Source: Desulfovibrio sp. | GTDB lineage: Bacteria; Desulfobacterota; Desulfovibrionia; Desulfovibrionales; Desulfovibrionaceae | Direction of reading: 5' to 3' | Length of the DNA stretch: 64,000 nucleotides | NCBI GenBank assembly: GCA_017415765.1 | Contig: JAFQED010000032.1 | Span: 4,709-68,708, forward strand | In this document: one piece after another, positions 912-14,044 of the stretch | How the letters are laid out: each line of letters begins with the position of its first letter | Numbering within the stretch: the stretch's first letter is position 1 | Notes under the pieces: model-generated | What the model saw: only the letters and a program-made list of their open reading frames with translations | The model's database searches: none | What the model was told of the DNA's origin: nothing | Position numbers and translations under genes: made by a program

Positions 912-1610
912 ATGAAAAGGCCTATCATTGAAATAGACGAAGAAAAATGCAACGGCTGTGGCCAATGTGTACTGGATTGCGCCGAGGGAGCATTGGCCAT
1001 CATTGACGGCAAGGCCCGTCTTATCAGCGATGTGTATTGTGACGGGCTTGGTGCCTGTCTGAACTGTCCGCAGGGGGCCTTGCGCCTTATCACCCGTGAG
1101 GCTGAGGATTTTGATGAAAAAGCTGCCCTGGCTGCCAAGGCTGCACGTGAGGCCGGCAGTACAGCTGCGGCCGGTGCGTGTGGCTGTCCGGGCATGGCAA
1201 TGCGCAGCCTTCAACCCCTTAGCACCCTGCACAGCGAAGATAACAGCGCATCGTTACGGGCTGCCCTGCCATCCTGGCCCATCCAGTTACGCCTCATCCC
1301 GCCTACGGCCTCCTTTCTGCAAAAGGGCAGACTACTGCTGGCCGCGCACTGCGCCGGTTTTGCCCTGCCCGACCTGCATCAGGACTGGCTGACAGGCCAT
1401 GTCCCGCTTATCGCCTGTCCCAAACTGGAGGACAATGCCCTGCTGCTTGAAAAGCTGACGGCCATCCTGCGTGATGGTCAGCCCGCCAGTCTTGAAGTCC
1501 TGCGGATGAGTGTCCCCTGTTGTGGAGGGCTGGAACGCCTGGCCCGACAGGCCCTTGAGGCTGTCGGACGCCCGGCTGCGGGGCCTTGCCATGTAGTGCG
1601 TCTAGACTAA
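912..1610 (+). CDS. 4Fe-4S dicluster domain protein with a Cys-rich C-terminal domain
   Basis: CNGCGQCVLDC and CDGLGACLNCP ferredoxin-type cluster motifs. Further Cys motifs GACGCPG, IACPKLED, VPCCGG. Stop lies 10 nt before the transposase remnant. Confidence 0.8.
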   Translation: MKRPIIEIDEEKCNGCGQCVLDCAEGALAIIDGKARLISDVYCDGLGACLNCPQGALRLITREAEDFDEKAALAAKAAREAGSTAAAGACGCPGMAMRSLQPLSTLHSEDNSASLRAALPSWPIQLRLIPPTASFLQKGRLLLAAHCAGFALPDLHQDWLTGHVPLIACPKLEDNALLLEKLTAILRDGQPASLEVLRMSVPCCGGLERLARQALEAVGRPAAGPCHVVRLD

Positions 1611-1620
1611 ACTTGAGTCT

Positions 1621-1899
1621 TTGGAAAAGGCTGATGGTCGAATCGAAACCCATCGGTACTGGCAAAGTGAAGAAATTTCCTGGTTTGAAGACAAAAAACA
1701 TTGGCCTGGCATGCGTAGCTTCTGCATGGTTGAAGCCATCCGTGAGTATGAAGGGTATCGAAAAGTCAGTCGCCGTTACTATCTGTGCAGTTTATCTTGC
1801 AGTGAGGAACAGATAGCTCACAGCATTCGCTCGCACTGGCAGGTTGAAAATTCCCTTCACTGGTGTCTTGATGTGGTTTTTAAATCTAAAATACAGTGA
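1621..1899 (+). pseudogene. Remnant of an ISAs1-family (H-repeat-associated) transposase, internal/C-terminal fragment only
   Basis: Translation GRIETHRYWQSEEISWFEDKKHWPGMRSFCMVEAIRE...IRSHWQVENSLHWCLDVVF matches the conserved C-terminal block of ISAs1 transposases (GRIETR...W.GL.S......R......RYY.SS......IR.HW.IEN.LHW.LD..F). The roughly 250 N-terminal residues and the last ~40 residues are missing. No inverted repeats seen. Confidence 0.75.
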
Positions 1900-1999
1900 G
1901 AGTGAACAGGCAGAGCGGAACGCAAAATTTACCATCTCAGGTATTCCTTTTATGCTGGATAAATCTCCTTGCTTTGCATGTCATACTCTCGATTATGAA

Positions 2000-3451
2000 T
2001 TATGGTATAATATTGTTCATAGCAAGATAGCTATACGTCTCATCAGAAATCATAATTCTTAATTTTTCATAATCTTTATTATCAATAAGACTTCTGACTT
2101 TGCTTGCACTGACATATTCGCCATTAATAGAAAATCTATTTATTTCAATAACATCGATGCCATGTAATGGAAGGATATTTTTCATAGATTCATTATATAG
2201 TTTTGTAAGATTACAGAATGGTTCACATCCTACAAAACGCTTTTTTATATTAAGCTCCTTTGCAATGATAGTTGAAAATGTCAGAAGATCAGTGCTAGTA
2301 TCAATAAATACATCCTGCATATTTTCTTTTTCAAAATATTCTGGCAGAGTTGTTGATGATATAATCAATTTACCAGCAGGTAAAATCTTTATATTTTTTA
2401 CTCCCGTTAAATTGGCGTGTATGATTTTTATCCTGTCATCAAATAAAAACCTGGATTTTTCTTCATCTAGGACAAAAATGTATAGAAAATCACATCTCTT
2501 TAGGGCTTCATCAATCAAATATTTATGTCCTCTTGTAAACGGATTGGCATTGATTACGACACAACCATAACATTTGGAATTTTGAGAAACTTTTGATTTT
2601 ATATTGCGTAAAAAATTTATATATGGCTGTATTGATTTTGAGTATTTTATCTCTTTATTATTGCTATTTATCATATTAATAATATCAAACAACTTTAATG
2701 ATATTAATGTATATCCATTGTGATTCATATGAAATTGATCAAATAGTATTTCTCCATATTTATGTGGTCTCTGAAATATACATGACAAATCTTGATATAT
2801 GTAAAAATTTTGATTAAGAAAATTTTTTAGCTTATCGGTAAAAACTTCGCATCGTGCTATTGTTAATAAAATTACAATATCATCGTTACTAAATTCATAC
2901 ATTGGTGAAATCATCTGTCGTACTGACTCTTCAAGCCCTAGCCAATTAGCATGATTGATAACTTTTATTCCTTCTGGATATGTTTTGTTTAACATGCGCT
3001 GAAGCTGACTGGCAACTGTAAGCCTGTCCTCAGCAAAAACACCTACAGCGTTACAATTGCCAAATATATGAACTTTAGATTTGTATACATCTGGATTGTC
3101 AGTTGTTACTCTCTCTCCATTAATAACATTGTAATATTTTGAAGCACAATCATTTAAATTTCCAATTCCATTTTTCACAATAGACTTCATACCAGATAGT
3201 CTAAAATTAAATATCTCAATAATATCGTTAATATTATTATACTCACGATAATATTTAAGTAGATATTTTTTATTGTCTGGATTTAATAAAAATTGCCATC
3301 GCCTATTTTCATCTTTTATTTCTTTTTCTAATTTAGATGGTTTTTTTATCTGATTTATATGGTTACCTAAATTAATAATAACAAGCTTGCTACCTGAATA
3401 GTATATTTTATGCAGCAGAGATAAAATCATACACATTACCTTGCTCATCAC
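2000..3451 (-). CDS. Two-domain protein: unrecognised N-terminal domain (~290 aa) fused to a citrate-lyase-ligase (CitC)-like adenylyl/cytidylyltransferase domain
   Basis: Intact 483-codon ORF in strongly AT-rich DNA. C-terminal half has nucleotidyltransferase signatures: VVINANPFTRGHKYLI (T/HxGH motif) and YVSASKVRSLI (ISxxxxR-type motif), collinear with the CitC C-terminal domain. The N-terminal half lacks the GNAT domain of true CitC. Confidence 0.7.
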   Translation of the reverse strand: MMSKVMCMILSLLHKIYYSGSKLVIINLGNHINQIKKPSKLEKEIKDENRRWQFLLNPDNKKYLLKYYREYNNINDIIEIFNFRLSGMKSIVKNGIGNLNDCASKYYNVINGERVTTDNPDVYKSKVHIFGNCNAVGVFAEDRLTVASQLQRMLNKTYPEGIKVINHANWLGLEESVRQMISPMYEFSNDDIVILLTIARCEVFTDKLKNFLNQNFYIYQDLSCIFQRPHKYGEILFDQFHMNHNGYTLISLKLFDIINMINSNNKEIKYSKSIQPYINFLRNIKSKVSQNSKCYGCVVINANPFTRGHKYLIDEALKRCDFLYIFVLDEEKSRFLFDDRIKIIHANLTGVKNIKILPAGKLIISSTTLPEYFEKENMQDVFIDTSTDLLTFSTIIAKELNIKKRFVGCEPFCNLTKLYNESMKNILPLHGIDVIEINRFSINGEYVSASKVRSLIDNKDYEKLRIMISDETYSYLAMNNIIP

Positions 3452-3728
3452 TCTACATCATCTGAATGTCAAAACCTTCATTAGATGCCATTGATGTCCG
3501 GCTAAGAGGGAATAAAAAATCCAAAATCTCAGCAAGTGGTGGTATAGCTAGCTTAACAAAACACTTACCACACAAGAATATTTTTGACGTGTGCCACCAT
3601 ACTACACTCTTTTTCCAGATGCTACCCCTTATTCCCAGACATGCTTTTCAAAAACACGAACATCGGCACAAAACAGGTCGTTCGCCAGAAAATTCGGCAT
3701 CAAGGGAAATCAAAGAGAACTTGCGGAT

Positions 3729-3764
3729 TAGAGCGAAATGCCATTTTCAATGGCATTTCGCTCT
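3729..3764. repeat. Solo palindromic hairpin module of the intergenic repeat family (inverted orientation)
   Basis: TAGAGCGAAATGCCATTTTCAATGGCATTTCGCTCT is a near-perfect palindrome. Same unit as at 13829-13863, 14009-14043 and 56989-57022. Lies 24 nt downstream of the stop of the minus-strand M16 peptidase gene. Confidence 0.8.
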
Positions 3765-3787
3765 GGTCAGATACGCTAAGAACCGTA

Positions 3788-6433
3788 TTATGGCTCAAGG
3801 CTTAGTTCATATGCGCCTGCCTCTACCAGATATTTGCGAGCCACATCCTGTACCTGGGCAGGGGTGAGCTGGCGGGCTTTTTCCAGCAGGATTTTTTGGA
3901 AGCCCTGCGGCAAATCAAGTACGGCATCGCTGGCAGATTCGGACGCACGGCTGCCAAGGCTTTGTCGGTCTCGTAAATACTCGCCTAAAAGGCGATTTGC
4001 CCCAGCCTGCAAGGTCGCTTCCGGTAAGGGGGCGGTCTTCAGTTGGGCAATGACCTTGGCAAAGCCGTCTCTGGCCTGCGCCAGCTTGTCGGGCGTAGTG
4101 CCGATATAAAAGGCCAGATAACCTGCTTCGGGCATCAGTCGATTAAAGGCGGTCACGCTGTAACCAAGGCCTTGCTCGTCCCGCAGACTGGAGAACAAGA
4201 GACCACTTTGACCGGAAAGGACGGATCCCAGCAGCATCAGGGCCGGGGCATCCTCATGGGTCAGGGGCACGGTTTTGAACACCTGCAACAAATGGGCCTG
4301 GGAACGGCCGGGCAGCCGAAGATCCAGGTTTTGCTGTGAACCCCAGTGGGGGGGCGCAACAGTCAGGGCTGGCCCTTCAGGCCGGGGCAAACTCTGGGCA
4401 AAGGCCAGTACAGCTTCTCGCTCAAAGCTGCCGGCCACGGCCAATACCCACGGCTGTGCCAACTGTTTGTGCCAGAAAGCCCGGACATCACGCTGTTGCA
4501 AAGCGACCAGGCTTTCAGGTGTACCCAGGCTGTCCAATCCATAGGGCTGCCCATCGGGGTACAGAAAGGGCATCAGCCGCGCAAAGGCATAGGCCAGAGG
4601 GCGATCTGCCCGCTGCCTGATCGCAGCCTGCATCAGGTTTACTTCGCGTTCCAATTCGCTTGCAGCAAAGGTTGGCTCGCGCAGCATTTGTCCAAGGGCC
4701 TTGAAATAATCCTCATTAAAGCGTGATGGCCCGGTGAGCGAAATACTGAAACTTTGCAGACCAGCCCTGGCACTGGCCGAGGCAGCACGCTCTGCAAAAA
4801 AACGCTCCACATCCTGCTGACTGAGCGAGCCATAGCCCGCTGTGAGCAAGCGCGCTGTCAGACTGGCGAGGCCTTGCTGCTGTGGTTGCAGCAGGGCATT
4901 GCCCCCGGGCATGACAAAATCCAGAGAAACATAGGGGGCCGTGGCATCCGGGATAAGGATGAGCTTGCGTCCATCCCCCATATCCAGCACTTCCTGGGGG
5001 CCTTGCGCCACTGCTTTTTTATCCTCAACAGGGCTTTGACTGGCTGGCCAGTTGGTATCAAAAATTTTGCCAAAGTTCGGCAGGGTTGCCTCTTGCGGGG
5101 CCAGCACGCGGATGCGCGCCAGTTCGGGCCGCACCCATTGCCCCAGTACCGTCCTGATCTGTTCCAGACTGGCGTCATTCAGGGCCAGCCGCAAATTGCG
5201 TTCGCCCTGTTCTCCGCCCAGGTCAAACTGGACAGTGCCTTGCCAGCTTGCAAGGCCGTTCAGGGTCTCACCCACCCTGTCCATGCTGTCCTCAATATTC
5301 AACTTGGCACGCGCCAGTGCCGCCGGGCCAAAGTCCAGCTTGTCCAGATTGCCCAGATCGTGGGAAAGTTCCTGCCAGAACGGCTCTATCTTTTCGGGTT
5401 CAAGTTCGGCGGTAAGCAGCATCAGACCCGCCCGTGCCAGACTCATGTTGCCCACGCTGATAGATGTTGCCAACTGTTTTTCGTACACATACTTCTTGTT
5501 CAGCCAGGCTGTACCGTCCCCTGCCAGAAGGTAACTGGCAAGGTCGAGATCCAGCGAGCGTAAATCTGTCAAAGAAGGGGCAGGGAAGGCCACGCCAAGG
5601 TAGATTTTTTTCCACGGGCCTCGCTGCACCATTACCTTGGGGCCAGCCGCCGCAGAGCGTACATCCAGCGGTTCCGGTACTGGTTGTTCGCCATGATTGC
5701 TCAGACCGCCAAACAATTCCTGGGCATGGGCCAGCACATCTGCGGGTACAATGTCCCCGGCTACCAGCAGGAGCATATTCCGGGGTTGATACCAACGCTT
5801 GATGTACCCCCGCAGATCCTGCACGGTAAGGGAGCGGATGGTCTCTTCATAGCCAATGATGGGATGCCCATAGGGGGAACGGGCCAGTGTTGCGGTTTGC
5901 AATTCCTCAAACAGGCGGCTGGTGGGGGAATCCTTGCCGCGTTGCAGCTCCGAAACGATAACGTCTTTTTCTGCTTCCAGTTCAGCAGGGTCAAGGCTGG
6001 GAGCAACGGCCATATCCCTGACCACATCCATGCCCATACGCCAGTGGGCTGCAGGCATGTCGGTCAGATACCACGTCTTGTCAAAGCTGGTGGCTGCATT
6101 GAGATAACCGCCAAGGCTTTCCACATCGCGGGCTATCTGTCCCTTGGGACGTTTTTCCGTCCCCTTGAAGACCATATGCTCCAGCACATGACTGATGCCA
6201 GCCTGTGACGGCAACTCATTGGCAGAACCCGCCCGCACATAGAGGCGAGTGCAGACCAGTGGAAAACGCGTATCTCTGATAACATAGACCGTCAGGCCGT
6301 TGGCCAGGCGTACAAGCTGGCTTTCGCCAGTCTTGCCCGCCACGGGGGCAAGGGCATCACCGGCCTGGATGGCTTGCACCCATTGCGTCAGGGCCAGCAA
6401 TGTCACAAGGGTAAAAAGAAGAAACTTTCGCAT
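3788..6433 (-). CDS. Secreted double-length M16 (pitrilysin/insulinase) family zinc peptidase
   Basis: HVLEHMVFKGTEKRP (HxxEH zinc motif). Second M16-like half downstream. Start chosen at MRKFLLFTLVTLLALTQWVQA (signal peptide) with GGAG SD. The longer ORF 5' extension was rejected. Confidence 0.9.
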   Translation of the reverse strand: MRKFLLFTLVTLLALTQWVQAIQAGDALAPVAGKTGESQLVRLANGLTVYVIRDTRFPLVCTRLYVRAGSANELPSQAGISHVLEHMVFKGTEKRPKGQIARDVESLGGYLNAATSFDKTWYLTDMPAAHWRMGMDVVRDMAVAPSLDPAELEAEKDVIVSELQRGKDSPTSRLFEELQTATLARSPYGHPIIGYEETIRSLTVQDLRGYIKRWYQPRNMLLLVAGDIVPADVLAHAQELFGGLSNHGEQPVPEPLDVRSAAAGPKVMVQRGPWKKIYLGVAFPAPSLTDLRSLDLDLASYLLAGDGTAWLNKKYVYEKQLATSISVGNMSLARAGLMLLTAELEPEKIEPFWQELSHDLGNLDKLDFGPAALARAKLNIEDSMDRVGETLNGLASWQGTVQFDLGGEQGERNLRLALNDASLEQIRTVLGQWVRPELARIRVLAPQEATLPNFGKIFDTNWPASQSPVEDKKAVAQGPQEVLDMGDGRKLILIPDATAPYVSLDFVMPGGNALLQPQQQGLASLTARLLTAGYGSLSQQDVERFFAERAASASARAGLQSFSISLTGPSRFNEDYFKALGQMLREPTFAASELEREVNLMQAAIRQRADRPLAYAFARLMPFLYPDGQPYGLDSLGTPESLVALQQRDVRAFWHKQLAQPWVLAVAGSFEREAVLAFAQSLPRPEGPALTVAPPHWGSQQNLDLRLPGRSQAHLLQVFKTVPLTHEDAPALMLLGSVLSGQSGLLFSSLRDEQGLGYSVTAFNRLMPEAGYLAFYIGTTPDKLAQARDGFAKVIAQLKTAPLPEATLQAGANRLLGEYLRDRQSLGSRASESASDAVLDLPQGFQKILLEKARQLTPAQVQDVARKYLVEAGAYELSLEP

Positions 6434-6446
6434 GGCATCTCCTGCA

Positions 6447-6476
6447 TAAAAAACCGGGCGGAATACACCCGCCCGG
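6447..6476 (-). terminator. Intrinsic terminator between the DHH gene and the M16 peptidase gene
   Basis: Minus strand reads CCGGGCGG-gtgtattc-CCGCCCGG followed by TTTTTTAT. The U-tract ends about 13 nt before the peptidase ATG (6433). Confidence 0.7.
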
Positions 6477-6572
6477 AAACATAAGCATCCCTTCTGTACC
6501 CAGCAAGGGGACGCCTTTTTGCAAGGCATATCCCTGTAGGGCAGAGGGTGAGACAATGGCAAACGTTCTGCC

Positions 6573-7502
6573 CTACCTGTCCAGCGCAGTTACCAGGGCA
6601 GCACGCACGCTGTCAGCCTGCTCGTTAGGTACCTGGCAGGTGCCAGCAGCCATATGGCCTCCGCCGCCATAGCCCAGCATGACTTCACCCACATTGACCG
6701 GGCTGGTACGGTCAAGAATGGACTTGCCCACAGCAAAAACCGTATTCTGTTTTTTCAGTCCCCAAAGGATGTGCATACTGATGCTGCATTGCGGGAAGAG
6801 GGCATAGATCATAAAGCGGTTGGTACACCAGATGGGGTCTTCTTCCCGCAGGTCAAGCACTACCAGCTTGCCGTGGGTGACAGCGCAACGCCGTATTTGT
6901 TCTACGGCCTTATCGTGATGCTCGCGATACAGTTCCAGCCGTTCCCGCACATCAGGCAGATCCAGAATTTCATCAATACCCTTGCTGCGGCAGTGTTCGA
7001 TAAGTTCCATCATCAGGGCATAGTTGCTGATGCCAAACTCCCGAAATCGTCCCAGCCCCGTGCGCGGATCCATAATATAGTTGAGAAGGGTCCAGCCCGT
7101 GGGATCAAGAATGTCCTCCTGGCTGTAGTCGGCCGAGTCGGCTTTGTCCACCGCCAGCATCATTTCTTCAGATATGTCCGGGAAGCGTTCCTTGCCGCCG
7201 TAGTGCCTGTACACCACCCGTGCGGCAGAAGGGGCAGTCGGGTCAATGATGTAATTGGACGGGCGCTGGCCGCTGTGGCGCAGGGTTTCGGAAAGGTGAT
7301 GGTCAAAAACCAGATGGGCCTCTGGCCGGTAGGGCAGGTTTGTGGTGATGTCGGTCGGGCCGATCTCTACCTTGCCGTCCTGCATGTCTTTGGGATGCAC
7401 AAAGGTGATGCCATCCAGCATACCCAGCTCGCGCAGCAAAACAGCACAGACCAGCCCGTCAAAATCGCTGCGGGTCACCAGACGGAATTTTTGTTCACTC
7501 AT
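6573..7502 (-). CDS. DHH-family phosphoesterase (NrnB/COG2404-like)
   Basis: MSEQKFRLVTRSDFDGLVCAVLL (DxDG motif), VFDHHLSE (DHH motif), GGGGHMAAGTCQV (DHHA1-type GGGH). GGAGGA SD before ATG 7502. Confidence 0.8.
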   Translation of the reverse strand: MSEQKFRLVTRSDFDGLVCAVLLRELGMLDGITFVHPKDMQDGKVEIGPTDITTNLPYRPEAHLVFDHHLSETLRHSGQRPSNYIIDPTAPSAARVVYRHYGGKERFPDISEEMMLAVDKADSADYSQEDILDPTGWTLLNYIMDPRTGLGRFREFGISNYALMMELIEHCRSKGIDEILDLPDVRERLELYREHHDKAVEQIRRCAVTHGKLVVLDLREEDPIWCTNRFMIYALFPQCSISMHILWGLKKQNTVFAVGKSILDRTSPVNVGEVMLGYGGGGHMAAGTCQVPNEQADSVRAALVTALDR

Positions 7503-7630
7503 GCCGTTTCCTCCTGCAATGGAATTTGCATCTGTCAGAGTATTTTTCAATTAAAAATTATGTGTTGCAGTTCTCCCAACGCGTGGTGAACGGTCGGCAG
7601 ACTGAAAGCCTATTTCACCTGCAATGCGCT

Positions 7631-8578
7631 TTATAAAAGGTGACAACGTGCCCGCCAGCCGGGTGCCAGTTCTTTCCAGCCGGGGGGCTGTCTGCGACAA
7701 ATCTCACGAGCCTCAGGGCAACGTGGATGAAAACGGCAGCCCGGAGGTGGTGCAAGGGGGCTTGGCAGTTCTCCGCTCAGTGGACTTGTCAGAGCACCCT
7801 CGCCGCCAAGGGCTGGCATGGCAGCCATCAGGGCGCGGCTATAGGGGTGGGCCGGTTTGTTCCAAAAGACATCCCGTGGCCCTTCTTCCACCAGTTGCCC
7901 CAGATACATGACAACGATGCGCGGACAAAGAAAACCCACCACAGCCAAATCATGCGAGATAAAAAGATAGGCAGGGCTGAAACGCTCCTGCACATCACGC
8001 AGTAAATTGAGGGTCTGGGCCTGTACTGAGGCATCCAGTGCCGAGACAGGTTCATCGCACACCACCACTTCCGGTCGGGTAACAAGGGCACGTGCCACCG
8101 CAATACGTTGCCGCTGGCCGCCAGAAAATTCGTGCGGATAGCGGTGTTCCATACCGGCCAGCCCTACAGCTCCCAGCATTTCGGCTGCTGCCGTACGGCA
8201 GTCTTGTAATGGTAATCCCCGTGCCAGCAGCGGCTCTGCCACAGAATCCCCCACCTGCATCCGGGGATTCAGAGATGAAAAAGGATCCTGAAAAATCATC
8301 TGGATGCGTCCGGCTGCCCAGCTTCCCGGCCCGGCTGGCGGCAGGTCGCGCCCCTCCAGCAAAACCTGTCCGGCTGTAGGGCTGAGCAAGCCTGTGGCCA
8401 GTCGTCCCAATGTGGATTTGCCGCAGCCGGATTCACCAACCAGCCCAAGGCTTTCGCCGCGCTCCAGGCAGAGATCCACCCCGTCCACGGCCAGCAGTTC
8501 TCCGGCAGGGGCCAAAAAACCGCGTCGTACGGCAAAACTGCGGCACAGCCCACGTAGTTCCAGCAAGGGGGTGCTCAC
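7631..8578 (-). CDS. ABC transporter ATP-binding protein, oligopeptide/dipeptide/nickel (OppF/DppF/NikE) type, with no permease or binding-protein gene nearby
   Basis: Walker A GESGCGKST, signature FSGGQRQR, Walker B VVVCDEPVSALD. C-terminal oligopeptide-type extension HPYSRALMAAMP...CRFHPRCP. GTG start overlaps the cobT stop (GTGA). Confidence 0.9.
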   Translation of the reverse strand: MSTPLLELRGLCRSFAVRRGFLAPAGELLAVDGVDLCLERGESLGLVGESGCGKSTLGRLATGLLSPTAGQVLLEGRDLPPAGPGSWAAGRIQMIFQDPFSSLNPRMQVGDSVAEPLLARGLPLQDCRTAAAEMLGAVGLAGMEHRYPHEFSGGQRQRIAVARALVTRPEVVVCDEPVSALDASVQAQTLNLLRDVQERFSPAYLFISHDLAVVGFLCPRIVVMYLGQLVEEGPRDVFWNKPAHPYSRALMAAMPALGGEGALTSPLSGELPSPLAPPPGCRFHPRCPEAREICRRQPPGWKELAPGWRARCHLL

Positions 8579-9699
8579 ACGTCCATCCTGTCACCGGGCC
8601 GCGCACTCACGCCAGCAGTCTCAAGGGTAGCCATATCATTGAAAATGGCGGCTGCCGCACGCAGCAACTGCCAGGCCAGGACAGCTCCCGTACCCTCACC
8701 TAGGCGTAGTCCCAGTTGCAGCAGGGGGGCCTGCTTGCCTTGGGCCAGACATTCCATGACTGCGGCATGGCCGGGTTCGGCCGAGGTGTGGGACAAAATA
8801 GTGTAATCAGCCAGAGTAGGGGCCAGGTGCAGACCCACTGCCCAGGCTGCCCCGCAAATAAAGCCATCCACCAGAACGGGCAGACGCTCCATGCCCGCAC
8901 CAAGGAGGATGCCGCAGATGACGGCTATCTCCAGCCCCCCCAGCGCGGCAAGGATCCCCAGGGGATCTTTGCCGGTAATGGCTGTGGAGTGAAGTGTCAA
9001 TGCCTGCCTGATGACTCCTATCTTATGGCGCACCATCTCTGGCTGCGCACCGGCCCCCGGCCCTGTCACATCTTCGGGGGAAAGCCCCAGCAGGGCACAG
9101 TAAAGCGCGGTAGCCGATGTGGTGTTGCCAATGCCCATCTCACCCACTGCCAGGCAGGAATAGCCCTGTCTGGCAGCTTCCCGTGCCAGCTCCATACCCT
9201 TGTGCACGGCCTTCAGGCACATTTCGGGACTCATGGCAGGGCCTTGGCTCAGGTCATCCGTGCCTTCAGCAAGGCGGCAGTCACGCAGCATCGCATGCGG
9301 GGGGAACGGCCCACCGATACAGCCGGCATCCACCACCCGCAGATCCATACCTGCGCACGCACACAGCGCGTTGACCGCAGCCCCTCCCTGCAAAAAATTC
9401 TGCACCATTTGACGGGTGACTGCCTGTGGAAAGGGGGATACCCGCCGGACGGCCACACCATGGTCTGCGGCCACGGTCAGCATCAGGGCCGGGCTGACCA
9501 GTAAGGGCATCTGCCCCTGACGGATGGCATAAAGGCGGCTGGCCAGATCCTCAAGCCTGCCAAGGCTGCCCTGTGGTTTGGTCAGACTGTCCAGGCGTTG
9601 CTGTGCCTGCCGAAACCAACGCTCTTCCAACGGAGGCAATAGGCAACCGGGAAAATACTGCTGCAGCCAGTTTGGGGAATTCCCTGCTTTCCTGTCCAT
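8575..9699 (-). CDS. cobT: Nicotinate-nucleotide--dimethylbenzimidazole phosphoribosyltransferase
   Basis: LDSLTKPQGSLGRLEDLA, GEMGIGNTT and GLRLGEGTGA blocks typical of CobT. Full length, about 374 aa. Confidence 0.9.
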   Translation of the reverse strand: MDRKAGNSPNWLQQYFPGCLLPPLEERWFRQAQQRLDSLTKPQGSLGRLEDLASRLYAIRQGQMPLLVSPALMLTVAADHGVAVRRVSPFPQAVTRQMVQNFLQGGAAVNALCACAGMDLRVVDAGCIGGPFPPHAMLRDCRLAEGTDDLSQGPAMSPEMCLKAVHKGMELAREAARQGYSCLAVGEMGIGNTTSATALYCALLGLSPEDVTGPGAGAQPEMVRHKIGVIRQALTLHSTAITGKDPLGILAALGGLEIAVICGILLGAGMERLPVLVDGFICGAAWAVGLHLAPTLADYTILSHTSAEPGHAAVMECLAQGKQAPLLQLGLRLGEGTGAVLAWQLLRAAAAIFNDMATLETAGVSARPGDRMDV

Positions 9700-9832
9700 G
9701 CTGTCTTGTATCCTGTCAGGGCATATGGTGCAAGAGCTTGACTCCCACCGGGCCGGGGCTTATCTGGCAGGGGATCAATCTGAGCCTCAAATAAACAACT
9801 ATATAGTTTTTGCAACCTCACAGGAAAAACAT

Positions 9833-11188
9833 ATGCTCAAGCTGCCTGCCCTGTTTTATCGCATATCCTTCGCTGTCATTTGTCTGGCCCTTTTGGGGGG
9901 CTTGCCGATGGCCGGGCCACTTGTGGCCGCACCTGCCCCTGACAGCCCCCGCCTGACCCCGGTGGTGCGTACCGTGCAGCAGGTGGCCCCGGCCGTTGTC
10001 AACATTACAAGTACCCGAATCATTGAAAGTTTGCAGCCCAACCCACTGGAGCTGTTTTTTGGGCCAGGTTTTGATTTTGCCCCCGGGAGAGCGCAAAAGC
10101 AAAAACGTGTTAGTCTTGGTTCTGGCGTTATCGTGGATGGGGCGCGTGGCCTTGTGCTGACCAATGCTCACGTCATCACGGGCAGCACCGAAGTTATGGT
10201 ACATTTGCTGGATGGTCGCCAGTTTGCTGCTGTGGTCAAAGGGGCCGAGCCGGATTTTGACGTTGCCGTGCTTGCCATCAAGGGGGCGCACGACCTGCCA
10301 GCGGTGACTCTTGGGGACTCCACGGATATCATGCCCGGCGAGACTGTTATTGCCATCGGCAACCCCTTTGGCTTCAATCACACGGTCACCACGGGGGTGG
10401 TTTCTGCCCTTGACCGCACCATCCGTAACGGCAATGGGGTTTTTACCAATCTCATCCAGACAGACGCTGCCATCAACCCTGGCAACAGCGGCGGCCCCCT
10501 GTTGAATATGGAAGGTGCGCTCATTGGTATCAATACCGCTGTAGATGCGCGGGCAGAGGGCATCGGCTTTGCCATCCCGGTAAACAAGGCCCGTCGGGTC
10601 ATGGCTGATCTGATGAAAACAGGTCGGGTGGCTCCTCTCTGGCTGGGGATAATGGGCGAGGATCTGGACAGGCGTATGGCGGCAGCCCTTGATCTGAAAG
10701 ATGTCCACGGTTTGCTGGTGACTTCTGTTGCAGAAGGCAGTCCGGCAGCTTTGGCAGGTATCGTACCGGGGGACATTGTTGAAAGTATCAATGGCTCTTC
10801 CCTGCGAGATCGGCGTGACTATGTCAATCTGCTCCGCAACCAGACCCGTGATAGCAAAGTATCGCTGGGTTTGCTCCGCAACGGGCAGCGGGAAGGACTG
10901 AGCCTGCGCCCCGTTCCTTTTGACAATGCCACGGTCACGCAGTTGATGGAAGAACGTTGGGGACTCAGCTTTGGGCCGGGTAAACGCGGCTTGGTCGTCA
11001 CAAAAGTACGTGCCGATGGCCCGGCAGATTTTTTGCGCCGGGGGGATATAGTCACAGCCGTGGGGGGAACTGCCATCAAAACCATGGATGAGTTGCTGGA
11101 CATTTTTCGCAAGGAACGGTTGGCCAGCCAGATACTCTTGCAGGTGCTGCGCAATGGACGCGGCTATTATGCCCGCCTTGTGTTGTAA
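9833..11188 (+). CDS. Periplasmic serine endoprotease DegP/HtrA family with PDZ domains
   Basis: Catalytic triad contexts TNAHVI, DVAVL, GNSGGPLLN. N-terminal signal/anchor MLKLPALFYRISFAVICLALLGG. The ORF-track start at 9578 was rejected. Confidence 0.9.
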   Translation: MLKLPALFYRISFAVICLALLGGLPMAGPLVAAPAPDSPRLTPVVRTVQQVAPAVVNITSTRIIESLQPNPLELFFGPGFDFAPGRAQKQKRVSLGSGVIVDGARGLVLTNAHVITGSTEVMVHLLDGRQFAAVVKGAEPDFDVAVLAIKGAHDLPAVTLGDSTDIMPGETVIAIGNPFGFNHTVTTGVVSALDRTIRNGNGVFTNLIQTDAAINPGNSGGPLLNMEGALIGINTAVDARAEGIGFAIPVNKARRVMADLMKTGRVAPLWLGIMGEDLDRRMAAALDLKDVHGLLVTSVAEGSPAALAGIVPGDIVESINGSSLRDRRDYVNLLRNQTRDSKVSLGLLRNGQREGLSLRPVPFDNATVTQLMEERWGLSFGPGKRGLVVTKVRADGPADFLRRGDIVTAVGGTAIKTMDELLDIFRKERLASQILLQVLRNGRGYYARLVL

Positions 11189-12760: not shown

Positions 12761-13383
12761 AAGCACGCTATGACGATATCGATGAATACATTGCTGACCT
12801 GAAGGCAGAGATAGCCAGCAATGACCAGTGCGCCACCCACCACTACAATCTGGGTTTGGCCTTTCTGAGCAAACGGGATTTTGTTGCTGCCGAGGAAGCC
12901 CTGCTTGAAGCAGTACGCAATTCACCGCATCTGGCCGAAGCCTATGTCCAGTTAGGGGGGATATGTCTGGAGCGGGGGGATTTGGAAGGTTGTCTGCGCT
13001 ATAATGAAGAGGCTGCCAACTGCCGGGCGCGTTTTGCCATCCCGTGGAGCAATATCGGCTTCGTCCATATCCAGCGTGGCGAACCGGACAAGGCTATTAC
13101 TGCCCTGAACAAGGCCCTGAAGTGGGATCCCAAGTTTGTACAGGCCAAAAACTCCTTGGCTACAGCCCACTTCATGAAGGGAGACCTTGAAACGTGCGCC
13201 AAACTCTGCCGTGAGCTGCTGGAAAAGGAACCCGGCTTTGCTCCTGCCTGGAACAATCTTGCCCTTGCCCTGTTTGAGCAAAAAGACTACGCCGCCGCTA
13301 TCGATGCGGCAGACAAGGCCGCAGAACTGGGCTTTGATGTCCCTGAAGGCTTCCTTGAGGAGCTGAAGGCCCATCGGAGCTAG
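12757..13383 (+). CDS. Tetratricopeptide-repeat protein
   Basis: Repeated 34-aa TPR-like units (e.g. HHYNLGLAFLSKRDFVAAEEALLEAVRNSPHLAEAY, WNNLALALFEQKDYAAAIDAADKAAELG). Confidence 0.8.
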   Translation: MKARYDDIDEYIADLKAEIASNDQCATHHYNLGLAFLSKRDFVAAEEALLEAVRNSPHLAEAYVQLGGICLERGDLEGCLRYNEEAANCRARFAIPWSNIGFVHIQRGEPDKAITALNKALKWDPKFVQAKNSLATAHFMKGDLETCAKLCRELLEKEPGFAPAWNNLALALFEQKDYAAAIDAADKAAELGFDVPEGFLEELKAHRS

Positions 13384-13423
13384 ACTGGTTTCAAAAAAGT
13401 TTTACTTCAAAACTGTATTGCAA

Positions 13424-13480
13424 GGCCAAAAACGATATGGCTTATCTGGTGATAGCCTTACTCGTTTTTGGTCTTGTTTT
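13424..13480 (+). terminator. Long imperfect hairpin plus T-rich tail after the ferredoxin-TPR operon
   Basis: GGCCAAAAACGATATGGCTTATC / GATAGCCTTACTCGTTTTTGGTC arms (one bulge, a few mismatches) followed by TTGTTTTTG. Sits between convergent genes. Confidence 0.5.
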
Positions 13481-13519
13481 TGGGTGGGTATGCCGTACTG
13501 GCTTCAAATGGGTTGGGCA

Positions 13520-13798
13520 TCACTGGACATTTTTTATCAGCTCAACGACATCCTTCAGGACTTCGGTCAAGTAGGGGATATTCATACTGATAAGTTGTTT
13601 GAGAACTTTGTAGGCAATGGCCAGAACAATGGCTGTCCCTACTGTGAAGCCCAAACCTCGTGCAACACCTGAAAGAAAGTTCAGCCACAAGATTTTCCAT
13701 GTGCGCTGCGAGAGTTTGATATACTCCTCCAGACCACAGTTTTCCAGGCGGGTGGCAAGTTTTTCCAGTTCTGTTGTAGCACGCTTTTCATCGCTCAT
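13520..13798 (-). CDS. Small membrane protein (92 aa), unknown function
   Basis: MSDEKRATTELEKLATRLE... followed by a hydrophobic segment LWLNFLSGVARGLGFTVGTAIVLAIAY. Start chosen at ATG 13798. Confidence 0.6.
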   Translation of the reverse strand: MSDEKRATTELEKLATRLENCGLEEYIKLSQRTWKILWLNFLSGVARGLGFTVGTAIVLAIAYKVLKQLISMNIPYLTEVLKDVVELIKNVQ

Positions 13799-13827
13799 AT
13801 GGATTCCTGTGTTGGGCATAGGGGAAG

Positions 13828-13972
13828 GTAGAGCGAAATGCCATTGAAAATGGCATCGCTCTGGCGGACGCGCGAGCGGACGCCCGTGCCGTAAGCAAGC
13901 GGGAAAACCGCGCTTTTCCCGCGAAGCGTAGGCAGCGTATGGATTGAAACACAGAGTGTTTCAATCAGAAAA
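13828..13972 (+). repeat. Composite three-hairpin intergenic repeat element, copy A
   Basis: Hairpin 1 AGAGCGAAATGCCATT-gaaa-AATGGCATCGCTCT. GCGGACGC direct duplication. Hairpin 2 GCGGGAAAA-ccgcgc-TTTTCCCGC. Hairpin 3 GATTGAAACAC-aga-GTGTTTCAATC. Near-identical copy at 56988-57130. Confidence 0.85.
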
Positions 13973-14007: not shown

Positions 14008-14044
14008 TTAGAGCGAACTGCCATTGAAAATGGCAGTCGCTCTG
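14008..14044 (+). repeat. Solo hairpin-1 module of the same repeat family, 7 nt downstream of the trpB stop
   Basis: TTAGAGCGAACTGCCATTGAAAATGGCAGTCGCTCTGA. Carries the CTGCC/GGCAG stem variant also seen at 56989. Confidence 0.8.

What the first reader, a model, noticed from the sequence alone, without database searches (positions are those of the whole stretch)
1611..3728. AT-rich foreign block of about 2.1 kb between two core genes, bounded by a transposase remnant and a repeat hairpin
- **Composition:** it changes abruptly. 60-nt lines I counted inside the block range from about 17% GC (line 2641) to about 48% (line 3001). A flanking line (4021) is about 63%.
- **Left edge:** a truncated ISAs1-type transposase fragment (1621-1899).
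- **Right edge:** composition fades back to host level at about 3600-3728, next to a host repeat hairpin (3729-3764).
- **Cargo:** a single intact 483-codon ORF. In DNA this AT-rich, stop codons should be frequent in any unselected frame. The intact frame therefore argues for recent acquisition or ongoing selection.

This is the clearest accessory DNA in the window.
Basis: partly seen in the sequence, partly recalled or inferred. Interest (0 to 1): 0.65.

Follow-up and report, generated by a model that had tools for sequence, protein, structure and literature searches.

The report
AT-rich islet carrying glycan-acylase-like gene
A 2.1-kb piece of foreign, AT-rich DNA sits between two core genes of a gut Desulfovibrio-like bacterium; some strains of the species have it and others lack it, and it carries one intact gene from a large unstudied enzyme family that probably adds small acyl groups to surface sugars.

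Summary
Window 1601-3724 is 32.5% GC. Same-size windows elsewhere in the 64 kb are 58.1 ± 2.1% (minimum 52.9%).

**Contents:**
- a decayed C-terminal third of an ISAs1-family transposase (1621-1899)
- one intact ORF on the minus strand (2000-3430/3451, 476-483 codons)
- the ORF's 0.3-kb upstream region

**Right edge:** it abuts a 35-nt perfect hairpin (3730-3764). This is a dispersed host repeat with three copies in the window.

**Accessory status:** independent assemblies span both junctions. Four sequencing runs from two studies hold the empty-site allele, in which base 1599/1600 joins 3725. The block is also absent from the sister species. It is therefore real, strain-variable, acquired DNA.

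**The cargo is not citrate lyase ligase.** It joins a CitC-type adenylate-forming ligase domain to a new SGNH-like domain with a Cys/Ser-His-Asp triad.
- The SGNH-like domain has about 7,000 representative relatives, and 57 of 70 sampled also carry the ligase domain.
- Homologues lie in capsule, exopolysaccharide, rhamnan and nonulosonic-acid loci.

**Inferred function:** ATP-driven acylation of a surface-glycan precursor, giving strain-level surface variation.

**Verdict:** an ordinary islet with a moderately interesting, uncharacterised cargo.

The parts
912..1610 (+). Left flanking core gene: a 232-aa 4Fe-4S protein (Fer4_6 / AF_0155 family), paired with the HAD hydrolase gene at 170-907. 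Its last four codons (1599-1610) differ at 5 of 12 bases, all synonymous, between the island allele and the empty allele.
   Evidence: Pfam. Precomputed PF27217. The HAD-Fer4 pair is conserved in relatives of 64-70% identity. Allele comparison.
1601..3724 (.). The islet itself: 2,124 bp, 32.5% GC. It is present in some conspecific strains. In others it is replaced by 3-4 bases (CTT / ACTT).
   Evidence: Composition. Empty-site joints 1599/1600->3725 in runs X2, X5, X8 and X12. Island-spanning contigs L001, L020-L022 and X1.
1621..1899 (+). Remnant of an ISAs1-family transposase gene. Only the C-terminal third is present (model positions 202-288 of 314). The 5' two-thirds are missing right at the islet's left border. 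A shifted frame seems to carry the last residues on to about 1975 (read by eye, not tested). GC is 43%.
   Evidence: NCBIfam NF033564, 98.6 bits, cutoff 70. Pfam DDE_Tnp_1. tblastn to annotated ISAs1 transposases at 42-46% identity. The best relative is only 68% identical and partial, with no intact close copy.
2000..3451 (-). Cargo ORF of 483 codons from GTG 3451. The probable start is ATG 3430 (476 aa), preceded by AAGG 8 nt upstream. It is a two-domain enzyme.
   Evidence: ORF list. Identical 476-aa protein P0001. Stop-free chance 1.4e-20. All family-invariant residues kept. Three of four strain SNPs are synonymous; the fourth is M153I.
2654..3394 (-). N-terminal domain (residues about 20-266): a divergent SGNH-like fold. 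The motif G131-N-C133 occupies the place of SGNH block I (G-D-S), and D238-x-x-H241 the place of block V.
   Evidence: AlphaFold model, pLDDT 93. The Foldseek matches with probability 0.6 or more are all SGNH esterases, and all are weak (E 0.018-0.8). Nucleophile column Cys 86 / Ser 50 of 140, His 137/140, Asp 119/140. Lipase_GDSL_2 matches at the same position in relatives.
2024..2566 (-). C-terminal domain (residues 296-476): the citrate-lyase-ligase C-terminal domain, an adenylate-forming HIGH-motif nucleotidyltransferase (here T306-R-G-H309).
   Evidence: Pfam PF08218, E 4e-58. TIGR00124 scores 186.6 bits, below its 262 cutoff, and only on model positions 113-328. Structural matches to PPAT, NMNAT and pantoate ligase at E 4e-7 and weaker. 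TmcAL and MJ0951 by sequence profile.
3431..3724 (-). Upstream, non-coding part of the islet (41% GC). It presumably holds the cargo gene's promoter and ribosome-binding site.
   Evidence: It lies inside the segment missing from the empty allele. Composition. No Rfam family matches. The promoter scan is no better than shuffled sequence, so the promoter is inferred only.
3730..3764 (.). Host REP-like palindrome with perfect 16-bp arms, 23 nt downstream of the M16 stop codon. It marks the islet's right border. In the empty allele its left flank (GGATTAG) supplies the Fer4 stop codon.
   Evidence: Other copies at 13830-13862 and 14010-14043. Depth spikes and many alternative flanks. A related AGAGCG...CGCTCT palindrome follows the M16 stop in the sister species.
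3788..6433 (-). Right flanking core gene: an M16 (pitrilysin-type) metallopeptidase of 881 aa as called.
   Evidence: Pfam. Homologues across Desulfovibrio. RNA contigs cover it in metatranscriptome X19.
1610..1615 (+). AACTTG, repeated exactly at 3718-3723. This is a possible short direct repeat at the two islet ends. No clean target-site duplication exists.
   Evidence: Read from the sequence. Six bases could match by chance.

Best explanation
**What it is (shown; confidence about 0.95).** This is a small, horizontally acquired genomic islet. It segregates as a presence/absence polymorphism within one gut Desulfovibrionaceae species.

**How it arrived (inferred).**
- An AT-rich gene from a low-GC donor travelled next to an ISAs1-family insertion sequence.
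- It landed in the few bases between the stop codon of a 4Fe-4S protein gene and a REP-like palindrome that follows the convergent M16 peptidase gene.
- The insertion sequence has since lost its 5' two-thirds and decayed, so the islet can no longer move on its own.
- It now probably spreads or is lost by homologous recombination in the flanks.

**What the cargo does (inferred; about 0.55 for the general role, about 0.35 for the exact relay).**
- The cargo is intact and under purifying selection.
- Its C-terminal CitC-type ligase domain activates a small carboxylate (acetate is the default guess) with ATP to an acyl-adenylate.
- The acyl group passes to the thiol of Cys133 in the N-terminal SGNH-like domain. 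Cys133 forms a triad with H241 and D238.
- From there the acyl group goes to a hydroxyl or amino group of a sugar precursor on the cytoplasmic side.
- The expected result is an extra acyl decoration on a surface glycan (LPS, capsule or flagellin glycan). Strains with and without the islet would then differ at the surface that phages and hosts see.
For: **Acquired and strain-variable**
- Composition is 12 SD below the window mean. GC3 is 0.22 against about 0.6 in neighbours.
- An ISAs1 remnant lies at the left border.
- The empty allele occurs in X2, X5, X8 and X12. In X5 and X12 its depth equals the flank depth, while island pieces are 2-4 times lower.
- The island allele occurs in L001, L020-L022, X1, X3 and X4.
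- The islet is absent from the sister species and from other Desulfovibrio.
- In X2 the island differs from the window at 4 of 2,124 bases. The flanks differ at 25 of 3,844. This fits exchange of the island between flank haplotypes.

**Cargo selected**
- Stop-free chance is 1.4e-20. SNPs are three synonymous plus M153I.
- Every family-invariant residue is retained.

**Domains**
- PF08218 at E 4e-58.
- The SGNH-like domain is supported by the Foldseek matches (those with probability 0.6 or more are all SGNH esterases), by weak profile matches to GDSL enzymes, and by GDSL Pfam hits in relatives.
- Cys and Ser alternate at the block-I position: 86 Cys and 50 Ser of 140. His is present in 137 of 140.
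- The two domains are obligate partners: 57 of 70 N-domain relatives carry PF08218.

**Glycan role, from homologue neighbourhoods**
- Adjacent NTP_transferase.
- Sulfotransferase, LuxC/E, ACP, KASIII and PEP mutase.
- WbqC, RgpF and a methyltransferase.
- An EPS/CPS locus with EpsG, Bac_transf, many glycosyltransferases and Acyl_transf_3.
- NeuB, Epimerase_2, CTP_transf_3 and FkbH_N, i.e. a nonulosonic-acid locus.
- Fusions to GT2 and epimerase domains.

**Recurrent mobility**
- Homologues sit in low-GC islands of other high-GC contigs: L024, L025 and L007.
Against: - No glycan gene lies next to the islet in this window, so the acceptor is unknown and the gene would have to act alone.
- Structural matches of the N-domain are weak (best E 0.018, TM about 0.3-0.5). 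The SGNH block III Asn is not evident.
- The closest homologue cluster (P0002, 51% identity) has Ala at the proposed nucleophile position.
- No biochemical data exist for any family member that I could find.
- Expression evidence is thin. There is one 254-nt metatranscriptome contig in X10. X19 shows none, but its SNPs are those of the empty-allele haplotype.
- There is no clean target-site duplication, and the transposase is truncated exactly at the border, so the integration mechanism is not shown.
- Both alleles encode the same Fer4 C-terminus (VVRLD-stop) with 5 of 12 bases different. Neither a simple insertion nor a simple deletion explains this.
Confidence: 0.6

Rival explanations
1. The block was once fixed in the species, after a single old acquisition. 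The empty allele is then a secondary deletion, and today's polymorphism reflects loss rather than ongoing gain.
For: - The IS is dead, so no active insertion mechanism is visible.
- Most runs and contigs examined carry the island.
- In X2 the same flank haplotype occurs with and without the island.
Against: - A deletion would have to recreate the exact Fer4 C-terminus R-L-D-stop from different codons and a 3-nt filler. By chance this is on the order of 1e-4 (my estimate; no tool computed it).
- Recombination between the short repeats present (AACTTG, TGCG) does not give the observed empty sequence (worked by hand).
- The empty allele's stop codon lies in the REP flank, which looks like an original arrangement.
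Confidence: 0.25
2. The ORF is a genuine [citrate (pro-3S)-lyase] ligase (CitC) that activates citrate lyase for citrate fermentation.
For: - PF08218 at E 4e-58.
- Some source annotations of homologues say '[citrate (pro-3S)-lyase] ligase'.
- tblastn finds annotated citC genes at 32-35% identity over the C-terminal half.
Against: - TIGR00124 scores 186.6 bits, below its 262.1 cutoff, and only model positions 113-328 align.
- The N-terminal GNAT-type part of CitC is replaced by an unrelated SGNH-like domain.
- No citD/E/F, citX or citG lies beside it here or beside any homologue examined.
- True CitC relatives with CitG/CitX fusions appear only at the weak end of the hit list and cover only 37-42% of the query.
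Confidence: 0.03
3. The cargo is a decaying passenger with no present function. It looks intact only because it arrived very recently.
For: - Composition shows no amelioration.
- There is no partner gene in the islet.
- Expression evidence is weak.
- The adjacent IS is already degraded.
Against: - The IS next to it has had time to lose two-thirds of its gene and to frameshift. Meanwhile the 1.45-kb ORF, in 28% GC DNA, kept a stop-free frame (1.4e-20 by chance) and every invariant residue.
- The island has accumulated strain SNPs that are mostly synonymous.
- It occurs on at least two flank haplotypes.
Confidence: 0.12
4. The junctions are assembly artefacts: a chimera of Desulfovibrio DNA with DNA of a low-GC organism.
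For: The source is probably a metagenome-assembled genome, and contigs often break at the REP hairpin.
Against: - Five independent assemblies from different samples and assemblers span both junctions identically.
- One 14.7-kb contig has even depth across flanks and island.
- Island and flank depths agree within runs X1, X3 and X4.
Confidence: 0.01

Closest known systems
CitC, acetate:SH-citrate lyase ligase ([citrate (pro-3S)-lyase] ligase, TIGR00124)
   Same: The C-terminal adenylate-forming ligase domain is shared (PF08218, HxGH-type motif). CitC's chemistry, known from the literature, is ATP plus acetate giving acetyl-AMP, followed by transfer to a thiol. The relay proposed here also ends on a thiol, Cys133.
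   Different: The score is below the family cutoff. The N-terminal half is unrelated (SGNH-like instead of GNAT-like). There is no citrate-lyase gene context, and homologues lie in glycan loci.
TmcAL (YlbM), the acetate- and ATP-dependent tRNA-Met cytidine acetyltransferase; HIGH_NTase1 family (PDB 5y0r)
   Same: Same superfamily of ligase domain (weak profile hits). Same logic: a carboxylate is activated as an adenylate without CoA, and a second domain chooses the acceptor (from my own knowledge of the published enzyme).
   Different: TmcAL's acceptor domain binds tRNA. Here the partner is an SGNH-like domain with a Cys/Ser-His-Asp triad, and the context is glycan synthesis.
SGNH-domain O-acetyltransferases and esterases of cell-surface glycans (OatA C-terminal domain, PatB, AlgX/AlgJ, CE2 acetyl-mannan esterases such as PDB 6hfz)
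   Same: The fold class and the block I / block V layout match. These enzymes use a covalent acyl-enzyme on the block I nucleophile that is passed to a sugar hydroxyl (known chemistry, from my own knowledge). 6hfz, TesA and EstA are among the best structural matches.
   Different: Those enzymes are extracytoplasmic, use Ser, and receive acetyl from a membrane AT3/MBOAT partner fed by acetyl-CoA. This protein is cytoplasmic, has no signal peptide or membrane segment that I could see (not tested with a predictor), mostly uses Cys, and is fused to an ATP-dependent ligase. Similarity is weak (E at least 0.018).
Small serotype-converting islands: single glycan-modifying genes such as O-acetyltransferases carried by phages or IS-flanked islets in Shigella and Salmonella; ISAs1-family elements (IS1358, H-repeats) beside O-antigen loci in Vibrio cholerae and E. 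coli
   Same: A single low-GC glycan-modification-type gene, associated with an ISAs1-family element, is present in only some strains. The comparison itself is from memory, not tested.
   Different: There is no phage or integrase, the IS is a dead fragment, and the gene family is different and untested. No serotype or glycan data exist for this organism.

Membership tests
Horizontally acquired genomic island/islet | Composition and codon usage deviate from the host genome | tested here: met
   0.325 GC against 0.581 ± 0.021 elsewhere. GC3 is 0.217 against 0.56-0.66 in neighbours.
Horizontally acquired genomic island/islet | Variable presence among close relatives, with a demonstrable empty site | tested here: met
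   Joints 1599/1600->3725 in X2, X5, X8 and X12. The island is present in X1, X3, X4 and L020-L022. It is absent from sister species L023.
Horizontally acquired genomic island/islet | Mobility gene or its remnant, and flanking direct repeats | tested here: inconclusive
   An ISAs1 remnant is present. Only a 6-bp AACTTG repeat and imperfect TGCG...GAYTAR repeats flank the islet, and there is no clean target duplication.
ISAs1 family transposase | Full-length DDE transposase (about 314 aa in the model) scoring above the NCBIfam cutoff | tested here: not met
   The score is 98.6 bits against a cutoff of 70, but only model positions 202-288 are present. It is a fragment of a family member, not a functional member.
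ISAs1 family transposase | Terminal inverted repeats and 8-10 bp target duplication (from memory) | not testable with these tools
   The left end is deleted. No close intact copy was found to define the right end; the best relative is 68% identical and partial.
[citrate (pro-3S)-lyase] ligase CitC (TIGR00124 equivalog) | Whole-protein score above the curated cutoff | tested here: not met
   186.6 bits against 262.1. Only model positions 113-328 of 335 align.
[citrate (pro-3S)-lyase] ligase CitC (TIGR00124 equivalog) | Genomic association with citrate lyase subunits (citDEF) and citX/citG | tested here: not met
   None in the window neighbourhood or in the homologue neighbourhoods examined. The rest of the genome was not available.
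Citrate_ly_lig C-terminal domain (PF08218) / HIGH-motif nucleotidyltransferase superfamily | Domain match above the gathering score, with the HxGH-type motif | tested here: met
   196.5 bits against 20.9. The motif T306-R-G-H309 has G308 and H309 invariant in the family alignment. The fold matches PPAT/NMNAT.
Citrate_ly_lig C-terminal domain (PF08218) / HIGH-motif nucleotidyltransferase superfamily | Carboxylate-dependent adenylate formation | not testable with these tools
   Needs an enzyme assay.
SGNH/GDSL hydrolase-acyltransferase superfamily (N-terminal domain) | Flavodoxin-like SGNH fold | tested here: inconclusive
   The model has pLDDT 93. The Foldseek matches with probability 0.6 or more are all SGNH esterases, but E is 0.018-0.8 and TM 0.3-0.5. 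The window protein has no Pfam hit in this region. Lipase_GDSL_2 is below cutoff in relatives.
SGNH/GDSL hydrolase-acyltransferase superfamily (N-terminal domain) | Block I nucleophile (G-D-S) and block V D-x-x-H | tested here: met
   G131-N-C133 and D238-x-x-H241. The columns hold Cys 86 / Ser 50 of 140, His 137/140 and Asp 119/140. Cys in place of Ser is a variant.
SGNH/GDSL hydrolase-acyltransferase superfamily (N-terminal domain) | Block II Gly and block III G-x-N-D oxyanion-hole residues | tested here: inconclusive
   No conserved Asn at the expected place after the strand ending at residue 197. D191 is invariant. Model coordinates could not be inspected.
REP-like dispersed palindromic repeats | Short imperfect palindrome in many extragenic copies, usually just after genes | tested here: met
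   There are three copies in 64 kb, all downstream of genes. Depth is 3-5 times the flank, and contigs carry many different flanks.

The most novel reading that the evidence does not exclude
The cargo may represent a widespread, undescribed class of cytoplasmic glycan acyltransferases that need no acyl-CoA.

- A CitC/TmcAL-type ligase domain makes an acyl-adenylate from a free carboxylate.
- It loads a Cys (or Ser) of a fused SGNH-like domain as a covalent intermediate.
- That domain then decorates nucleotide-sugar or lipid-linked glycan precursors.

As a single mobile gene, such an enzyme would let strains switch a surface epitope by gaining or losing 2 kb.
Probability: 0.35. Interest if true: 0.6.

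Novelty: new member of a known kind. Interest (0 to 1): 0.33.

Why it matters
As a genomic feature this is an ordinary small island. It is unusually well documented here, because both alleles are seen in public data and the borders are known to the base.

The cargo is the more useful part.
- It gives a clean, minimal example (one gene, on/off between strains) of a two-domain enzyme family.
- The family has thousands of representatives in gut and environmental bacteria.
- Members sit in capsule, exopolysaccharide and nonulosonic-acid loci.
- I found no characterised member.

If the family does ATP-driven, CoA-independent acylation of surface sugars, it would add a new route to glycan decoration. 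It would also explain some strain-level surface variation relevant to phage and host recognition.

Tried and rejected
**Repeat search.** A search with three mismatches found the hairpin only once, and I first noted it as unique. That was wrong. A 1-nt indel hid two further copies.

**Empty junction outside the species.** This was not possible.
- In relatives the M16 gene is followed by acetyl-CoA synthetase (L023) or NrdD (L010).
- The HAD-Fer4 pair lies elsewhere.

**Defining the IS right end from an intact relative.** No close copy exists.

**Negative scans.**
- Anti-phage defence (PADLOC): none.
- RNA families over 1400-4000: none.
- Promoter and terminator consensus scans: no better than shuffles.

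**Other dead ends.**
- Plasmid collection: only distant hits. A Vibrio hit has no annotation.
- Cluster look-up: no names.
- Literature: no paper links citrate lyase ligase with SGNH or glycans. One search was badly framed and useless.

**Junction models.** Simple insertion with target duplication, and simple deletion between the short repeats, both fail to reproduce the observed pair of alleles (worked by hand).

**Not possible with these tools.** I could not inspect model coordinates to measure the distance between Cys133 and the ligase site.
Full report
**1. The observation**

The block is real and far outside the window's range.
- In 200-nt windows, GC drops from 0.64 (1401-1600) to 0.21-0.33 between 1901 and 3500. 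It recovers to 0.55-0.60 by 3800-4100.
- No other 1-kb bin of the 64 kb falls below 0.508.
- With the refined borders, 1601-3724 is 0.325 GC. 582 windows of the same size elsewhere give 0.581 ± 0.021, minimum 0.529.
- Third-position GC of the ORF is 0.217. Six neighbouring genes have 0.56-0.66.

The islet has three parts of different composition:

| Part | Coordinates | GC |
|---|---|---|
| Transposase remnant | 1611-1999 | 0.43 |
| ORF | 2000-3430 | 0.28 |
| Upstream stretch | 3431-3724 | 0.41 |

**2. Anatomy**

*Left flank.* A HAD hydrolase gene (170-907) is followed by a 232-aa 4Fe-4S protein gene (912-1610).

*Transposase remnant.*
- It starts eleven bases after the 4Fe-4S stop codon.
- 1621-1899 (+) matches the ISAs1 transposase model at 98.6 bits (cutoff 70), but only positions 202-288 of 314.
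- The gene is cut at the islet border, and its tail appears frameshifted (my reading of the sequence).
- Its best relative in 5.8 billion proteins is only 68% identical and partial. This is a dead copy of a rare insertion sequence.

*Cargo ORF.*
- The only long ORF runs convergently at 2000-3451 on the minus strand.
- Gene callers start it at M8 (476 aa) or M6 (478 aa). M8 has an AAGG 8 nt upstream.

*Right border.*
- 3730-3764 is a perfect 16-bp-arm hairpin. Its free energy is -30.4 kcal/mol, z = -6.1.
- It lies 23 nt after the stop codon of the convergent M16 peptidase gene (3788-6433).
Copies lie at 13830-13862 and 14010-14043, both after genes.
- In read data its depth is 3-5 times that of the flanks, and contigs with many other flanks end on it.
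- The sister species has a related AGAGCG...CGCTCT palindrome right after its M16 stop. The hairpin therefore belongs to the host, not to the islet.

**3. Is it accessory?**

Yes, on three levels.

*Not a chimera.*
- Four metagenome contigs from different samples and assemblers (L001, L020-L022) match the window at 99.85-99.95% without gaps across both junctions.
- Run X1 has one 14.7-kb contig of even depth over flanks and island.

*Absent outside the species.*
- In the closest relative found (L023; M16 82% aa, DNA 77-78%), similarity ends exactly at the M16 stop (window 3789).
- There the stop is followed by a small basic repeat ORF and acetyl-CoA synthetase.
- Eleven other Desulfovibrio loci (M16 59-66%) have neither the island nor the 4Fe-4S gene there; one has NrdD.
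- Relatives of the 4Fe-4S gene (64-70%) keep the HAD partner but are not followed by M16 or the island.
- The islet therefore sits at a synteny breakpoint.

*Polymorphic within the species.* This is the decisive level.

| Run | Study | Empty-site joint | Island pieces or contig |
|---|---|---|---|
| X5 | P2 | 1600->3725, depth 10.1 (= left-flank depth) | 2.3-3.4 |
| X12 | P2 | 1600->3725, depth 6.2 (same contig as the left flank) | about 2.4-3.4 |
| X2 | P2 | 1599->3725, depth 8.0 | 14.9 |
| X8 | P1 | 1600->3725, depth 3.1 | none |
| X1, X3, X4 | P1 | none | island only |

- The joints skip 2,124-2,125 bases, with 3-4 filler bases (CTT or ACTT).
- Low-coverage runs X6, X7, X9, X11, X13 and X14 also hold island pieces.

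**4. The junctions**

*The two alleles.*
- The empty allele reads ...GTG CGC TTG GAT TAG AGCG... Its stop codon lies in the left flank of the REP element.
- The island allele reads ...GTG CGT CTA GAC TAA ACTTGAG...
- Both give the same 232-aa protein ending VVRLD. In X2 the ending is VVHLD.
- Five of the last twelve bases differ, all silently. By contrast, the left flank in X5 differs from the window at about 1% of bases.

*What this means.*
- Relatives end in V-(R/Q/K)-L or V-R-L-G, so the V-R-L tail is under selection.
- A fresh insertion or a simple deletion would not reproduce R-L-D-stop by chance. My estimate is on the order of 1e-4.
- Recombination between the short repeats present (AACTTG at 1610-1615 and 3718-3723; TGCG at 1597-1600 and 3722-3725) does not yield the observed empty sequence.
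- My reading, which is inference: the two forms are old alleles. The island form arose in a lineage whose 4Fe-4S gene end had diverged. The forms are now exchanged by homologous recombination in the flanks.

*Support and limits.*
- In X2 the island differs from the window at 4 of 2,124 bases, while the flanks differ at 25 of 3,844. The same flank haplotype appears there with and without the island.
- Flank contigs may be collapsed mixtures, so this support is only suggestive.
- I record the matching C-termini as unexplained rather than solved.

**5. The cargo protein**

*C-terminal domain.*
- Residues 296-476 are a citrate-lyase-ligase C-terminal domain (PF08218, E 4e-58).
- This is a HIGH-motif nucleotidyltransferase fold. 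The full-length model has pLDDT 89 and matches PPAT, NMNAT and pantoate ligase at E 4e-7 and weaker. A sequence profile gives weak matches to TmcAL and MJ0951.
- The protein is not CitC. TIGR00124 scores 186.6 against a cutoff of 262.1 and aligns only from model position 113. No citrate lyase genes accompany it or its relatives.

*N-terminal domain.*
- The N-terminal 290 residues have no Pfam match.
- Modelled alone they give pLDDT 93.
- The Foldseek matches with probability 0.6 or more are all SGNH esterases: a polyesterase, the CE2 acetyl-mannan esterase 6hfz, TesA and EstA. All are weak (E 0.018-0.8).
- A sequence profile also touches GDSL enzymes (3mil, 4rw0, 7ddy).
- Some relatives match Lipase_GDSL_2 at the same position.

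*Catalytic residues.*
- The family alignment shows G131-N-C133 where SGNH enzymes have G-D-S, and D238-x-x-H241 where they have block V.
- Across 140 representatives the first column is Cys in 86 and Ser in 50. The His is kept in 137 and the Asp in 119.
- A Cys/Ser swap at one column next to an invariant His is what a catalytic nucleophile looks like.
- Block III could not be recognised.

**6. The family**

*Size and architecture.*
- The word-indexed search found only 76 relatives, the closest at 51% identity.
- A profile of the N-domain alone, scored against 1.84 billion representatives, found 7,047 at E ≤ 1e-3 and 572 at E ≤ 1e-30.
- Of 70 sampled, 57 also carry PF08218. A few carry GT2, epimerase, CBS or GDSL matches.
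- The two domains therefore form one conserved architecture.

*Neighbourhoods point to glycan synthesis.*
- A nucleotidyl-sugar transferase directly upstream.
- Methyltransferase, sulfotransferase, LuxC/E, ACP, KASIII and PEP mutase.
- WbqC, RgpF and a methyltransferase.
- A large EPS/CPS locus with EpsG, the priming transferase, nine glycosyltransferases and an AT3 acyltransferase. This homologue is seen on hundreds of gut contigs.
- A nonulosonic-acid cassette with NeuB, a 2-epimerase, a CMP-sugar synthetase and FkbH_N.
- One contig has two paralogues in tandem.

*Mobility.* In three other high-GC contigs the homologue lies in a low-GC island (L024, L025, L007). This gene type moves repeatedly.

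*Negative results.* There is no PADLOC match. I found no paper on such a fusion.

**7. How it most likely works**

*Shown.*
- The domain identities.
- The conserved triad columns.
- The obligate fusion of the two domains.
- The glycan context of relatives.
- The intact, constrained ORF: stop-free chance 1.4e-20, SNPs three synonymous plus M153I, all invariant residues kept.

*Inferred, from the known chemistry of CitC and TmcAL (carboxylate + ATP -> acyl-AMP -> acceptor) and of SGNH acyltransferases such as OatA and PatB (a covalent acyl-enzyme passed to a sugar).*
1. The ligase domain adenylates a small acid.
2. The acyl group is caught by Cys133.
3. It is delivered to a sugar precursor in the cytoplasm.

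*Unknown.* The acid and the acceptor. Here the gene stands alone, so it would decorate a glycan that the host already makes.

*Expression.* It is barely documented. One 254-nt contig in metatranscriptome X10 lies inside the ORF. X19 has good M16 coverage but none on the island, and its SNPs match the empty-allele haplotype.

**8. Verdict**

- As a genomic object it is an ordinary, well-delimited islet: a new member of a known kind.
- The cargo belongs to a large, uncharacterised enzyme family whose proposed chemistry would be a new variant of known ligase and SGNH mechanisms.
- Interest is modest overall. It would be higher if the enzymology is confirmed.

Noticed in passing
window 3730-3764, 13830-13862, 14010-14043; L023 12619-12680: A REP-like palindrome family (AGAGCGAA[A/C]TGCCATT..AATGGCA..CGCTCT) occurs three times in 64 kb, each time just downstream of a gene. 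It is multi-copy genome-wide, judged by 3-5x depth and many alternative flanks. A related palindrome follows the M16 stop in the sister species.
   Followed up: partly
window 1597-1615 versus the empty allele (runs X2, X5, X8, X12): The island and empty alleles encode the same 4Fe-4S protein C-terminus (VVRLD-stop), but 5 of the last 12 bases differ, all silently. In the empty allele the stop codon is supplied by the REP flank. Simple insertion or deletion does not explain this.
   Followed up: partly
window 3788 (M16 stop); L023, L010, L029-L039: The M16 3' end is a synteny breakpoint. Downstream lie acetyl-CoA synthetase in the sister species and NrdD/NrdG in a goat-caecum Desulfovibrio. The HAD-Fer4 pair sits at other loci in relatives, followed there by a conserved 'CTTGACAAAACATAG' motif.
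   Followed up: no
L023 about 12860-13250: Downstream of M16 in the sister species there is a GC-rich ORF encoding a highly repetitive basic peptide (repeats of RRSRPSRR[H/N]D).
   Followed up: no
L024 2314-5154; L025 3762-5234; L007 about 1000-10500: Homologues of the cargo lie in low-GC islands of other high-GC contigs. L024 has two tandem paralogues. In L007 the island also holds a 1,268-aa protein with no Pfam match, a GmrSD_N protein and a HigB-like toxin.
   Followed up: partly
window 3738-6000 in RNA run X19: The M16 peptidase gene is covered at depth 5-10 by metatranscriptome contigs, so it is transcribed in the gut. The contig ends inside the REP hairpin.
   Followed up: no
window 13300-13820: This is the second-lowest GC stretch of the window (0.46 over 500 nt). 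It holds a small minus-strand ORF (13520-13819, 99 aa) followed by the two other REP copies.
   Followed up: no
window 2201-2400 and 3201-3400 in several runs: Depth spikes occur here, and contigs match only 20-40 nt before running on into unrelated AT-rich sequence. These are probably chance matches of low-complexity AT-rich words from other organisms, not further copies of the island.
   Followed up: no
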